The position numbers were made by a program. Below are positions 15,001-18,000 of a stretch of DNA of 64,000 nucleotides, one piece after another (the stretch's first letter is position 1; each line of letters starts with the position of its first letter). Origin of the DNA: Escherichia coli (GTDB lineage Bacteria; Pseudomonadota; Gammaproteobacteria; Enterobacterales; Enterobacteriaceae); assembly GCF_044324875.1 (NCBI RefSeq), contig NZ_CP172185.1; one strand, written 5' to 3'.

Positions 15001-18000
15001 TGCAAAAATGGGGTAATAGCATTGCCCTTCGACTAACGGGAAACCTTAAAACCGTTCCGGGGTTTTCAGTGGGTGATATCGTCAACGTTGAAATTAGTGA
15101 AAAGGGGCTTTTTGTAGAAAAGCCTGCACGCCGTCGCCTGAGTGAAGCCGAATTACTCGCCGGGATAACGCCAGTTACAGCGCACGCGGACGAAATTGCC
15201 ACCCCATTCAATGAGGAGGTTGATTACTGATGTTTGTACCTAAGCGTGGTGATATTTGCTGGCTGGATTTTGAGCCGCAGAAAGGAAAAGAGAGCGGAAA
15301 GTATCGCCCGGCACTCATACTATCCCATGAGCAATATAACCGACTCACCGGGCTTGTCATATGCTGCCCCATAAGTACGAGCATACGAAATGCTCCCACA
15401 GAAGTTCCGGTAACAAATCTGGACGCCCCCAGCGTGGTAGCAACCACACTCATTCAAACCCTTGACTGGCGTCAGCGGAAAGCGCGCTTAATCACAGAGG
15501 CAGAAGATGGGGTATTTAATGATGTGCTTGAAAGAGTCATTACCCTGATTGGTGGAGAGCATCTGCTTAAGTAAAAGGAGGGCTGAGAAGCCCTCAACGT
15601 TACCAGAAATTTCCTTGCTATTCTTTCCAGTCAATCCCATCCAGTAAGCACCCTGCCTCATATTGCCCAACAACCCAGTCAAGATTGCAGGACTCATAGA
15701 AAGCGAGGCGATTATACTGTGGCTCGTTTTTTACCAGACCACGAACGGAACCGCGTTGCCAGTACAGGCACAGATTGGCAAGAGGTGTGATCAGCACAGC
15801 ATTGTCCGGGAAAAATGGAACGGTCACAGCCGGAAGATTCCCCAGCACGGGCTTTTTAATGATTTCCTCGTTAAGCAAAATTTCCTGATTCATCTGCGAT
15901 GGATCAAGACGGTTTATCAAAGGCCATTGTTTACGGACCAGAGTATTGTGACTGCATACGGCCACAATGCCTTCCTGCCACTGTTCATCAATCATGGATT
16001 GCCAGGCATCCAGAACAAGTGCATCTATTGTATGGTGTGTACCGCGTGTATTGCTTGTCGGCGATGAAACAGAAAGACCGCTGATAACCCTTCCCGCTGC
16101 TTCGTTTCGAAACTTCTGCAACCATCCGACGCCGCAATCGTCACGGCCCGGATATGTTTCAGGATCAGATTGATCGGCATAGTGTGTGCCGTTAAAACCA
16201 ATCTGAATTAAATCCAGCCATTTCCGGCGTTCAAAAGCGGCACGGGCGCTTCCTTCAAGACCATTTGCGGACGCGTGAGCATCGACATTGTCGTAGCTCA
16301 ACGCAAAATCAAAATTAACCTGCTCGCAGCGGTAGCCTCTTGAAACCAGTGAATGCGCCTGTAGTGGCGAACGGCGCTCGTGAGGTGGCGATGTACGTGC
16401 CAACGGCCCCGAAGCGTCTACCAGCACAACCTGACCTGATATATCCGTAACAGGCACGGGGGTTATTTCAGCAAGGAAATTTGCCTGCCATCCACTGGCA
16501 AGCGTTGCACTCTGGCGGGGAACGGGTTCAACTTCTGACGAATAGCGCGCAGTATCACCGGAAAAGTGCAAATCCTTCGGATGTTTTCCGGTTATCGACT
16601 CGATAGCGCAATTGAAAACCATCTGAGACTGTTGATTTCGTTGTGATACAACATAATCAGCAGTGCAATTATAACACTCAATGCCGTCGTTATTACCCCC
16701 ACCGCTTGCAGTATGCAGGGTGTGAAGCTCAAGCTCACGCTCCAGTTTTTGATATTCATTGTCCAGCGCGCGACGCGTCTCATCGCTTATGCTTGCTGTG
16801 TTTGCTTTCAGGCGATTCCGGCACATTAACTCCCTGAGTCGGCTCACTATATCAGCGCCGTGCAAATGTGAAATATTCAGACCGCCCATTACTGCCACCC
16901 CCGGCAGAGTTCTCTGCCCTCCGCAAGGTCGCGCATTTTTTCTGGATTCTGTCGCGCCGCGCTCCATTGTACAGGTGAAGGGGCGTTCCTGATTGCGTGG
17001 CTTACCGAATCCGGCAGTTTCTCCGGGCAATAACGAAGCGGATTGGAGGCATCGCTCTCAATATCGTTAATCCGGCCGCGAATCAGCCTGACACTTTCAA
17101 CAATATCTGCCACTTTCAGTGTTTCACATATTTTCTTTTCTGCGTTATACAGCGGCTGGCCAAGCAGCTCACATAAACCACGAATCAATAACAGAGCAGG
17201 GATCAGCTCGTTAATCAGTCCGGGAAGTGCTTTTGCAAATATCTCTGCCCGCAACTTATTATCAATGCTTTGGTAAGCACAGCCAGCCTCTGCCGCGTTA
17301 TAACGACACTCCAGTAACCTGATGCGCGCCTCATCATGCAATACCCGCAGACGCTCAAGATTTTCTCGCGCCACACCCGCCTGAATGCATAATTTTGCGG
17401 AGGCTTCCGTTTTTGCGCCCAGCGCAGACAGGATTGAGTTCTGCCAGTCACGATCGAGAGACTCCAGCTCCCCTTCCGTCTGTTCGATAGTCGCTTCCAG
17501 ATTGGTGATTAATGATTCCTGTTCGCTGAGTTTTGCCATGGCCGTATCAAACTGTGCTTTACATGCCTGATGCCTGGCGCTTGCCTGAGTTATATCCATT
17601 GTTTGCTCCTGTAATACATTTTTTACTTACGCCCATTTTTTCCATATTGCGTAATACATTCCAGCCGATTTTGTTCTCGTAATACGCTCACAATACTGTT
17701 GTATTACGCTTTCTTATATCGCGGGTGTTAAATCCCGGTATAAGCAATCAGGGAGGCAACACGATGAAAAAACAAAAGAAAATGCGATACGTATTACGCT
17801 GTATTCGTATCCCGCACGAAATCGACCATAAAATAAATCAGATATGTAAGGACAGAGAGATGAACTACTCCCAGTGCGTCAGAATGTTTATCTGTCAGGG
17901 AATTAAGGCCGGGGAAACGCAGGAAGAAGACCGCAACGGGCGCAGTGTAGCGGGGGATGTGTGGGCCTGGGCAAATGACCAGAACTACACGACGTAATAC

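What the first reader, a model, noticed from the sequence alone, without database searches (positions are those of the whole stretch)
16889..17599. Gene A may be a Psu-like protein or a novel partner
Gene A is helical and lies downstream of an Ogr/Delta-like gene, which is where psu lies in P4 (sid-delta-psu). However, a small opposite-strand gene (17764-17997) separates it from ogr, unlike P4. If gene A is Psu, gene B alone is the hotspot cargo; if not, the pair is a two-component system.
Basis: inference. Interest (0 to 1): 0.5.

Follow-up and report, generated by a model that had tools for sequence, protein, structure and literature searches.

The report
Sid-like scaffold paired with own capsid gene
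Gene A is a distant relative of Sid, the protein phage satellite P4 uses to shrink its helper's capsid, and it is always co-transcribed with the satellite's own copy of the P2-type major capsid protein, so this P4-like island probably brings both the cage and the bricks instead of stealing the helper's capsid protein.

Summary
The ORF is real: 16889-17599, minus strand, 236 aa, with an AGGAG ribosome-binding site. It is all-helical and lies downstream of an Ogr/Delta-like gene, with a small opposite-strand gene between them.

**Gene B.** It is not hotspot cargo. It is a diverged P2 gpN-type major capsid protein (34% identity) with an 85-aa N-terminal extension. The loop of gpN that Sid binds is rewritten. 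Its start codon overlaps A's stop codon.

**Conservation.** The A-B pair recurs in P4-like islands of E. coli, Klebsiella, Salmonella and Erwinia. The variable cargo, here MazEF, lies beyond it.

**Most likely function (inferred).** The pair is a satellite-encoded capsid-shell and external-scaffold module. I found no published description. It is a new variant of a known kind.

The parts
16889..17599 (-). Gene A: a 236-aa all-helical protein and a distant homologue of the P4 size-determination protein Sid (Sid/Psu fold).
15618..16889 (-). Gene B: a 423-aa diverged P2 gpN-type major capsid protein with an 85-aa N-terminal extension. Its start codon overlaps A's stop codon.
   Evidence: Pfam PF05125 at 1.4e-73. 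phrog_70 at 8e-78. TIGR01551 scores 136 bits, below the cut-off of 219.65. BLASTP against P2 gpN: 34% identity, E 1e-67, with gpN residues 3-340 aligned to B residues 86-419. The sir-loop region is replaced. dN/dS 0.10. AF2 model pLDDT 72.
17764..17997 (+). Small divergent gene of 77 aa. It looks like a ribbon-helix-helix regulator and is probably the repressor of the A-B operon.
   Evidence: Conserved in position and sequence in 6 loci, with invariant residues in the motif R..R.PH..D..I. Only a weak hit to the ORF56 copy-control RHH family, E 0.007. The function is inferred.
17600..17763 (.). Divergent control region. It holds four copies of GTATTAC/GTAATAC, the core of the 9-bp palindrome TGTA(A/T)TACA. 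It also holds an Ogr/Delta-type site at 17692-17675 (TGT-N12-AGA, one mismatch to TGT-N12-ACA).
   Evidence: Repeat positions. Alignment with 5 other loci. The TGT-N12-ACA site is exact at the aligned place in L005, L013 and L008. No sigma-70 consensus promoter is found there.
18048..18230 (-). Ogr/Delta-like zinc-finger late-gene activator (60 aa).
   Evidence: phrog_603 at 1e-10. 39% identity to P4 Delta, E 5e-7. Pfam Ogr_Delta in the homologous loci.
15578..15595 (-). Terminator-like hairpin just after the stop codon of B.
   Evidence: Consensus scan only.
14982..15574 (+). MazE/MazF toxin-antitoxin pair. This is the actual variable cargo at the end of the island.
   Evidence: NCBIfam and PHROG matches to MazF and MazE. 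Replaced by UDG or by GmrSD plus type I R-M in other loci. Similarity to the strain E9 island ends 84 bp upstream of mazE.
18345..20763 (-). IS21-family insertion (istA and istB ORFs) between ogr and the rest of the island. It is not part of the module.
   Evidence: ORFs. The same island without this stretch occurs in NZ_CP033635.
22053..30154 (-). Rest of the P4-like island. It comprises a second tyrosine recombinase (22053-23093), an alpha-type primase (23060-25753), small ORFs, an Icd/repressor-like gene (26726-27253), an AlpA-like gene (27807-28028), the integrase (28639-29943) and tRNA-Arg(CCT) (30080-30154).

Best explanation
**What gene A is.** Gene A encodes a distant homologue of Sid, the external capsid-size scaffold of satellite phage P4. 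It works as a pair with gene B, the satellite's own diverged copy of the P2-type major capsid protein gpN.

**Context.** The island is a P4-like satellite integrated at tRNA-Arg. In this lineage the classical sid-delta-psu operon is replaced by ogr/delta, then a small divergent regulator, then the Sid-like gene A, then the gpN-like gene B.

**Proposed mechanism.** Every step below is inferred.
1. When a P2-family helper enters its late phase, Ogr from the helper or from the island activates the promoter upstream of A through the TGT-N12-ACA-type site.
2. The small ribbon-helix-helix protein, bound to the TGTA(A/T)TACA operators, otherwise keeps the operon silent.
3. A and B are made in coupled fashion.
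4. B forms the capsid shell, or a defined part of it.
5. A dimers bridge B hexamers through A's C-terminal helix, the equivalent of Sid alpha6. The long stems join at threefold axes and force a small shell that fits the roughly 12.5-kb island.
6. The helper supplies the portal, protease/scaffold, terminase and tail.

**Shown versus inferred.** Shown: A is homologous to Sid in fold and in profile, B is homologous to gpN, the pair is conserved and translationally coupled, and both genes are under purifying selection. Inferred: A binds B, the capsid is made smaller, and the regulation works as described.
For: **A is Sid-like.**
- hhalign of the A family (18 sequences) against the Sid family (14 sequences) gives probability 84.8%, P 6.6e-6, over 166 collinear columns. 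In global mode it covers 222 columns end to end with P 7e-7.
- Controls score lower than the real score of 44.2: reversed Sid 10.9, 40 column shuffles at most 19.5, and 40 block shuffles at most 31.7.
- An HMM of the A family searched against PDB sequences puts Sid third, with 160 collinear residues and a shared D-W motif.
- The family-invariant P207-S208 and near-invariant Q211 (motif S-P-x-Q) align with Sid T219-P220-x-Q222. That is the start of Sid helix alpha6, which makes most of the contacts with gpN (PMC7552001).

**B is gpN-like and matched to A.**
- See for the homology.
- The gpN 'sir loop' that Sid contacts (around D189-E191) is shorter and different in B. All capsid proteins paired with an A-type gene share (S/N/D)(G/D)(L/V)SV(S/A) there, and phage capsid proteins do not.
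- These capsid proteins fall in lineages separate from phage gpN.

**The pair is a unit.**
- The stop and start codons overlap.
- The two genes are adjacent in E. coli (two integration sites), Klebsiella, Salmonella, Erwinia and three more divergent loci.
- dN/dS is 0.34 for A and 0.10 for B.
- The flanking genes vary while the module does not.

**Regulation.** The Ogr-type site and the operator repeats are conserved upstream of A.

**Precedent.** SaPIbov5 Ccm is a satellite-encoded capsid-protein homologue that redirects capsid size (PMC8569155).
Against: - No single similarity statistic is strong. BLASTP of A against Sid gives E 0.68, the HMM against PDB sequences gives E 0.19, and Foldseek gives E 0.07.
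- A search of predicted viral structures returned only generic coiled coils.
- Coiled-coil composition can inflate profile scores. One block shuffle reached a score of 31.7.
- No interaction between A and B, and no capsid, has been observed. The structure tools return no coordinates, so no complex could be modelled or inspected.
- No P2/P4-type cos site is present in the island or in its relatives. The packaging route and the helper are therefore unknown.
- One relative (L012) has an A-like gene followed directly by mazE with no capsid gene. A can therefore exist without B.
- The window copy carries an IS21 insertion that raises the island to about 15 kb. This copy may no longer be mobile.
Confidence: 0.6

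Rival explanations
1. Gene A is the Psu equivalent. It would be a capsid decoration protein that also inhibits transcription terminator Rho, and would not be a size-determining scaffold.
Confidence: 0.12
2. The A-B pair is mainly an interference or defence device. B would be a decoy capsid protein that, together with A, poisons capsid assembly of P2-family phages and would not build the island's own capsid.
For: B is a diverged gpN with an altered Sid-binding loop and an extra N-terminal domain. P4-like islands are rich in anti-phage cargo (PMC9122126). No cos site was found. Satellite capsid remodelling is itself a form of interference (PMC8569155).
Against: The pair occupies a fixed core position while the known cargo positions on both sides vary. 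Neither protein matches a PADLOC defence model apart from a weak coiled-coil hit. This explanation is not exclusive of the best one.
Confidence: 0.15
3. The resemblance to Sid is convergent coiled-coil architecture. A would then be an unrelated helical partner of B, for example an internal scaffold or chaperone for the island's capsid protein.
Against: The full-length collinear alignment beats the shuffled controls. Sid and Psu are the top two of 350,542 PDB chains. The motifs at the stem tip (D-W...G) and at the capsid-binding helix are conserved. The genomic context is a P4-like island next to delta. There is no similarity to gpO.
Confidence: 0.1
4. A and B are decaying leftovers of a P2-like prophage head operon (O-N).
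For: B is annotated as a P2-family major capsid protein, and an ogr gene is nearby.
Against: A has no similarity to gpO. Both genes are intact and under purifying selection. The same four-gene module sits in P4-like islands of several genera with no other head genes. B belongs to a separate clade from phage gpN.
Confidence: 0.02

Closest known systems
P4 Sid (size-determination protein; PDB 7JW1 chain E)
   Same: Both share the helical fold with a long two-helix stem, and nearly the same length (236 aa against 244 aa). The D-W...G motif at the stem tip is conserved. Both have a C-terminal helix that starts with S/T-P-x-Q. Both are encoded next to the delta/ogr activator in a P4-like satellite. 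Sid is the top structural hit by two methods, and the profile match is end to end.
   Different: Identity is only about 17% at profile level, and no pairwise or Pfam-level match exists. A lies after ogr, whereas sid lies before delta. A is separated from ogr by a divergent regulator gene. A is coupled to a satellite-encoded capsid protein, which P4 lacks. Sid acts on the helper's gpN. The partner of A is probably B, which is an inference.
P4 Psu (polarity suppression and decoration protein; PDB 3RX6; Pfam PF07455)
   Same: Psu belongs to the same fold family. Its gene occupies the same position after delta. Its last helix also carries a T-P-A-Q motif.
SaPIbov5 Ccm (satellite-encoded homologue of the helper's capsid protein)
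   Same: A satellite carries its own copy of the helper-type HK97-fold capsid protein, and that copy takes part in making small capsids (PMC8569155). This is the nearest functional analogue of gene B.
   Different: The capsid protein family is unrelated (phi12 type, not P2 type). The host is Gram-positive and the satellite is a SaPI. Ccm works without an external Sid-like cage.
Capsid-forming PICIs (cf-PICIs)
   Same: The satellites encode their own capsid protein and do not steal the helper's.
   Different: cf-PICIs encode the whole head module: capsid protein, protease, portal, connectors and small terminase. This island has only the capsid protein and the Sid-like protein, within a P4-type backbone.
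P2 gpN and gpO (helper head operon O-N)
   Same: B is homologous to gpN over its full length. The order 'helical protein then capsid protein' mimics the O-N order.
   Different: A is unrelated to gpO. B falls below the NCBIfam equivalog cut-off. B has an extra 85-aa N-terminal domain, a rewritten sir loop and no C-terminal tail.

Membership tests
Psu family (Pfam PF07455) | Sequence match to the Psu profile | tested here: not met
   PF07455 is not hit by gene A or by any of the 18 family members. BLASTP against P4 Psu gives E 5.8. hhalign against the Psu family gives probability 0.2%.
Psu family (Pfam PF07455) | Inhibition of Rho (polarity suppression) | not testable with these tools
   This needs a Rho-dependent termination reporter or a binding assay.
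Sid/Psu structural superfamily | Sid/Psu fold: a long coiled-coil stem, a dimerisation helix, a linker and a C-terminal capsid-binding helix | tested here: met
Sid family | Profile-level sequence homology to Sid | tested here: inconclusive
   hhalign gives probability 85% and P 6.6e-6 to 7e-7, collinear over 166-222 columns and above all 81 shuffled or reversed controls. Pairwise BLASTP gives only E 0.68, and the HMM against PDB sequences gives E 0.19.
Sid family | C-terminal helix (alpha6) that binds the capsid protein's sir loop | tested here: inconclusive
   The invariant P-S-P-x-Q of the A family aligns with T219-P220-x-Q222 at the start of Sid alpha6, and the model predicts helices at residues 209-226. 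Binding itself was not tested.
Sid family | Forms an external cage on procapsids and redirects T=7 to T=4 | not testable with these tools
   This needs co-expression, electron microscopy or genetics.
P2-family major capsid protein (Pfam PF05125 / NCBIfam TIGR01551), for gene B | Match to the family profile | tested here: met
   PF05125 at E 1.4e-73 over residues 132-419. 34% identity to P2 gpN, E 1e-67.
P2-family major capsid protein (Pfam PF05125 / NCBIfam TIGR01551), for gene B | Equivalog-level score, meaning the same function as phage gpN | tested here: not met
   TIGR01551 scores 136.1 bits against a cut-off of 219.65. B also has an extra N-terminal 85 aa and an altered sir loop.
P2 gpO scaffold/protease, for gene A | Sequence similarity to gpO | tested here: not met
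   hhalign of the A family against gpO gives probability 0.2%.
P4-like satellite (SatelliteFinder core: int, alpha, alpA, epsilon, delta, sid, psu) | Integrase, alpha-type primase, an AlpA-like regulator and a delta/ogr gene in one island of about 12 kb next to a tRNA | tested here: met
   Relatives also carry Ash and epsilon ('Derepression') genes.
P4-like satellite (SatelliteFinder core: int, alpha, alpA, epsilon, delta, sid, psu) | Canonical sid and psu genes | tested here: not met
   No gene in the island matches Psu or Sid at family level. Only the distant Sid-like gene A is present.
P4-like satellite (SatelliteFinder core: int, alpha, alpA, epsilon, delta, sid, psu) | P2/P4-type cos site | tested here: not met
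   No match to the 19-nt cohesive end with up to 4 mismatches, and no BLAST match to the P4 cos region, in the window or in 8 related loci.

The most novel reading that the evidence does not exclude
A lineage of P4-like satellites has made its capsid piracy independent of the helper's capsid protein. It carries a matched, orthogonal pair: a Sid-type external cage protein (A) and its own gpN-type capsid protein (B). The Sid-binding loop of B has co-evolved with A. The island therefore builds small capsids from its own shell protein and takes only the portal, protease, terminase and tail from the helper. Helper escape mutations of the 'sir' type in gpN would then be useless against it. The pair may also show the ancestral state from which Sid and Psu arose.
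Probability: 0.4. Interest if true: 0.8.

Novelty: new variant of a known kind. Interest (0 to 1): 0.62.

Why it matters
P4 is the textbook case of a satellite that builds its capsid entirely from helper-encoded gpN, reshaped by Sid. [quoted passage not shown]

**Why the finding is useful.**
- This is a third, deeply diverged branch of that fold. It is invisible to the Sid and Psu profiles used to find satellites, and it is fixed next to a satellite-owned gpN homologue.
- Islands of this type are probably scored as incomplete P4-like elements by current detection tools, because they lack canonical sid and psu.
- The pair offers a natural experiment on how an external scaffold recognises its capsid protein, through the matched changes in the sir loop and the alpha6-like helix.
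- It sits between P4, which steals everything, and cf-PICIs, which bring the whole head.

**How it can be tested.** Two genes can be co-expressed and examined by electron microscopy.

Tried and rejected
1. Direct family searches of gene A found nothing except coiled-coil noise. The searches were PHROGs, NCBIfam, PADLOC and Pfam, on A alone and on all 18 family members.
2. BLASTP of A against P4 Psu gave E 5.8, so no similarity.
3. The word-indexed protein search found only relatives of A with more than 87% identity. The full phmmer scan was needed to find the family.
4. A as a degenerate gpO scaffold is rejected.
5. The N-terminal extension of B as a fused gpO scaffold domain: no similarity.
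6. The 78-aa ORF between A and the capsid gene in L009 was tested as a free-standing version of B's extension, and the ORFs after A in L012 and L008 were tested the same way. None was similar. The L012 ORF is a MazE-like antitoxin by visual similarity to the window's MazE.
7. The 243-aa gene after ogr in L010 was tested as a second Sid/Psu-like gene. There was no similarity.
8. The Foldseek search of predicted viral structures (BFVD) was uninformative.
9. The search for a P2/P4 cos site, and for any conserved non-coding block downstream of B, found nothing.
10. No direct repeat of the tRNA-Arg end was found for the island's far border. The border is instead estimated at about 14897, where similarity to the E9 island ends.
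11. The search for related loci with the full A-family alignment failed because the alignment is too diverse. A narrower alignment found only 5 IMG/VR loci, all of known types.
12. A fused A-linker-B structure prediction was considered and dropped, because the tool returns no coordinates or PAE, so an interface could not be read.
13. Eight full-text literature searches found no description of this gene pair, and targeted reading of four of the retrieved papers found none either.
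Full report
**1. The observation**

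The ORF at 16889-17599 (minus strand, 236 aa) is present. It starts at an ATG seven bases after AGGAG. Its TAA stop shares an A with the ATG of the next gene (TAATG, 16891-16887). Gene B is therefore 15618-16889 (423 aa) and not the 470-aa ORF that the mechanical list starts at a TTG.

Upstream on the same strand lies a 60-aa Ogr/Delta-like zinc-finger gene (18048-18230). It matches phrog_603 at 1e-10 and has 39% identity to P4 Delta at E 5e-7. Between it and gene A, on the other strand, is a 77-aa gene (17764-17997).

RefSeq annotates these genes in the same way. Fifty-five of 5,426 complete E. coli genomes carry at least 80% of the queried 2.8-kb stretch.

**2. The surroundings**

The genes belong to a P4-like island integrated next to tRNA-Arg(CCT) at 30080-30154. 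Its gene order is:

- integrase
- an AlpA-like regulator
- an Icd/repressor-like gene
- four small ORFs
- an alpha-type primase
- a second tyrosine recombinase
- a 90-aa ORF
- an IS21 insertion, present only in this window
- the ogr-like gene
- the small divergent gene
- gene A
- gene B
- MazE-MazF

An IS-free copy sits at the same site in strain ECCNB12-2. A 96%-identical copy with a different integrase lies between hpt and gcd in strain E9 and many others. Similarity between the two insertion contexts stops 84 bp upstream of mazE, so the island ends near 14897. Without the IS the island is about 12.5 kb, which is the size class of P4.

**3. What gene B is**

Gene B matches the Pfam family of P2-type major capsid proteins (PF05125, E 1.4e-73, residues 132-419) and PHROG 70. 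It aligns with P2 gpN over the whole of gpN: 34% identity, E 1e-67, gpN residues 3-340 against B residues 86-419. It stays below NCBI's equivalog cut-off, scoring 136 bits against 219.65.

Three features set it apart from phage gpN.

- **An N-terminal extension of 85 residues.** It is predicted as a helical hairpin followed by a disordered linker.
- **No C-terminal tail.**
- **A shorter and different sequence where gpN has its 'sir loop'.** gpN reads SKVTDEEGRTTSEVIRVGKGGDY, and B reads SGLSVSSPTSNTRGTHH. The sir loop is the part of gpN that the C-terminal helix of Sid binds (PMC7552001).

Database relatives fall into two groups. One is a tight group of long capsid proteins from Enterobacterales at 41-52% identity. 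The ordinary phage capsid proteins follow after a gap. A neighbour-joining tree separates the two groups.

**4. What gene A is**

Gene A matches no family in Pfam, PHROGs, NCBIfam or PADLOC. BLASTP against P4 Psu finds nothing (E 5.8). Against P4 Sid it gives a non-significant but collinear 154-residue alignment (E 0.68).

An exhaustive phmmer scan of 1.84 billion representative proteins found a small family of about a dozen full-length members at 24-41% identity. I aligned these with the neighbours of B-type genes to give 18 sequences. None of the 18 matches the Psu Pfam family.

*Profile evidence*

- A profile of the family compared with a Sid-family profile gives probability 84.8% and P 6.6e-6 over 166 collinear columns. 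In global mode it covers 222 columns from the first to the last residue.
- The real score of 44.2 exceeds the reversed Sid alignment (10.9), 40 column shuffles (at most 19.5) and 40 block shuffles that keep local composition (at most 31.7).
- The same profile has no similarity to the Psu family (probability 0.2%) or to gpO.
- For scale, my Sid and Psu profiles, which represent accepted homologues, reach only 1.5% against each other.

*Structural evidence*

- AlphaFold2, run without templates, gives a confident all-helical model: pLDDT 93.6 and pTM 0.80.
- Foldseek against 350,542 PDB chains ranks P4 Sid (7JW1 chain E) first, with TM 0.49 both ways and 242 columns. It ranks P4 Psu (3RX6) second.
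- By my own recollection (not checked with the tools here), the AlphaFold2 training set predates 7JW1, which was released in 2020. If so, the model cannot be a memory of that entry.

*Conserved motifs*

- The near-invariant W52 and G61 at the tip of the helical hairpin align with the invariant W59 and G67 of Sid. In Sid this tip makes the threefold contacts of the cage.
- The invariant P207-S208 and near-invariant Q211 align with Sid T219-P220-x-Q222, the first turn of helix alpha6, which carries most contacts to gpN. Psu has T-P-A-Q at the same place.

*Caveats*

Each statistic alone is weak. Coiled coils attract spurious matches, as the uninformative search of predicted viral structures shows. 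The agreement of profile, two structure methods, motifs and genomic context is what carries the conclusion. I put the probability that gene A is a true Sid/Psu-fold homologue at about 0.85. Within that family it is clearly nearer to Sid.

**5. The pair is a conserved unit, not cargo**

I looked up the genomic places of diverged B-type and A-type proteins.

| Source | Gene order |
|---|---|
| Klebsiella, Salmonella, Erwinia psidii | ogr, 77-aa gene on the other strand, 240-aa A-type gene, B-type capsid gene. All lie in islands with the alpha primase. The Erwinia island (L006) also carries AlpA, Ash, epsilon and DUF5375. |
| L013 | ogr on the other strand, A, B |
| L010 | A, capsid gene, ogr |
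| L009 | A, 78-aa ORF, capsid gene, integrase |
| L008 | interrupted by a transposase |
| L012 | two ogr genes, an A-type gene, then mazE, with no capsid gene |

The A-capsid adjacency therefore holds in 8 of 9 informative contexts. L012 shows that A can stand alone, as Sid does.

What varies is on either side of the module.

- **Beyond B:** MazEF, UDG, or GmrSD with a type I restriction system.
- **Between primase and ogr:** a second recombinase, HicAB, or DUF4238.

These are the hotspots. The module is core.

Between the window and the E9 allele, dN/dS is 0.10 for B and 0.34 for A. Neither gene is decaying.

All capsid proteins that accompany an A-type gene share the (S/N/D)(G/D)(L/V)SV(S/A) version of the sir loop, and phage proteins do not. 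I read this as co-adaptation of the loop with the C-terminal helix of A. That is an inference.

**6. Regulation**

The 164-bp region between A and the divergent gene has no sigma-70 consensus promoter. It contains four copies of GTATTAC/GTAATAC, the core of a 9-bp palindrome TGTA(A/T)TACA. One copy lies about 19 bases before A's start codon. Such repeats, including the start-proximal one, recur in five of the seven other intergenic regions examined and are absent from L013; the E9 region is a near-identical allele of the window's.

About 90-120 bases before the start codon lies a TGT-N12-ACA element.

- It is exact in the Salmonella locus, L013 and L008.
- It has one mismatch in the window (17692-17675), Klebsiella and Erwinia.

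From established knowledge of P2 late promoters and of the P4 sid promoter, this dyad is the binding site of Ogr/Delta-type activators. The 77-aa protein has the sequence pattern of a ribbon-helix-helix repressor, with only a weak family hit.

My reading, which is inferred, is a late promoter switched on by Ogr and held off by the small repressor. A terminator-like hairpin follows B.

**7. How it most likely works**

The island makes, in a coupled manner, a capsid protein of the helper's type and a Sid-type external scaffold adapted to it. By analogy with the P4 procapsid structure:

- A dimers would bridge hexamers through the C-terminal helix.
- The long stems would join in threes.
- This would impose a small lattice suited to a 12.5-kb genome.

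The N-terminal extension of B may act as a built-in scaffolding (delta-like) domain. That is speculation, and it has no similarity to gpO.

Whether B forms the whole shell, or only a subset of capsomers as Ccm does in SaPIbov5, cannot be decided here.

The helper is unknown. The nearest phage capsid proteins are only about 38% identical, and no P2/P4-type cos site is present.

**8. Comparison with what is known, and novelty**

| Known system | Relation to this finding |
|---|---|
| P4 Sid | Same fold, and probably the same job as gene A |
| P4 Psu | Same fold, but gene A is not a family member |
| SaPIbov5 Ccm | Functional analogue of gene B |
| cf-PICIs | Same idea of a satellite-owned capsid protein |
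| P2 gpN | Homologue of gene B |

Papers on the diversity of P4-like satellites treat psu-delta-sid as the conserved hijacking operon. They note psu-less variants but mention no capsid gene. Eight full-text searches found no description of a Sid-like plus gpN-like pair, and reading four of the retrieved papers found none either. The library does not cover most subscription journals, so prior description cannot be excluded.

I rate the finding as a new variant of a known kind.

**9. Verdict**

- The Psu interpretation is partly right on the fold family and wrong on the member.
- The cargo interpretation of gene B is wrong.
- Interest is 0.62. The result is a testable and, to my knowledge, undescribed twist on the best-known phage satellite. 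It rests on consistent but individually modest remote-homology evidence, and there is no functional data.

Noticed in passing
window 18345-20763: An IS21-family element (istA and istB ORFs) is inserted between the ogr-like gene and the 90-aa ORF of the island. The otherwise identical island in NZ_CP033635 lacks it. The insertion raises the island from about 12.5 kb to about 15 kb, which may exceed what a small capsid can hold.
   Followed up: partly
window 22053-23093: A second tyrosine recombinase ('phage integrase', 346 aa) overlaps the 3' end of the primase gene by about 34 bases. It recurs at the same place in Klebsiella (L003) and in L013. It is separate from the tRNA-proximal integrase, and its role is unknown.
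   Followed up: no
window 17600-17763 and homologous regions of L003, L005, L006, L008: The 9-bp palindrome TGTA(A/T)TACA is repeated 2-4 times between gene A and the divergent 77-aa gene. One copy always lies about 20 bases before A's start codon. It is probably the operator of the small regulator.
   Followed up: partly
L012 1291-2806: A metagenomic relative has two tandem Ogr/Delta genes, an A-type gene (41% identical) and then a MazE-like gene, with no capsid gene. This is a Sid-like gene without its own capsid protein.
   Followed up: partly
L009 1731-1967; L010 2398-3129: Diverged relatives carry extra unknown genes inside the module. L009 has a 78-aa ORF between the A-type gene and a normal-length capsid gene. 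L010 has a 243-aa ORF after ogr. Neither resembles A, B's extension, or any family tested.
   Followed up: partly
alignment A6, sequences P0017-P0019 (E. coli): Some E. coli B-type capsid proteins have a much-expanded serine/proline/alanine-rich repeat in the linker of the N-terminal extension (up to 497 aa in total). This suggests the linker is a length-tolerant tether.
   Followed up: no
window 5817-13730 and 13778-14308: A 2,637-aa autotransporter adhesin lies just outside the island border, followed by a 176-aa ORF that RefSeq annotates as a hypothetical protein. RefSeq annotates the adhesin as phase-variable UpaE, and it contains a PQ-repeat stretch near 12500-12730.
   Followed up: no
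window 13500-15000: GC content drops to 37-42% between the autotransporter and mazE. The island's far attachment site was not found as a repeat of the tRNA end.
   Followed up: partly
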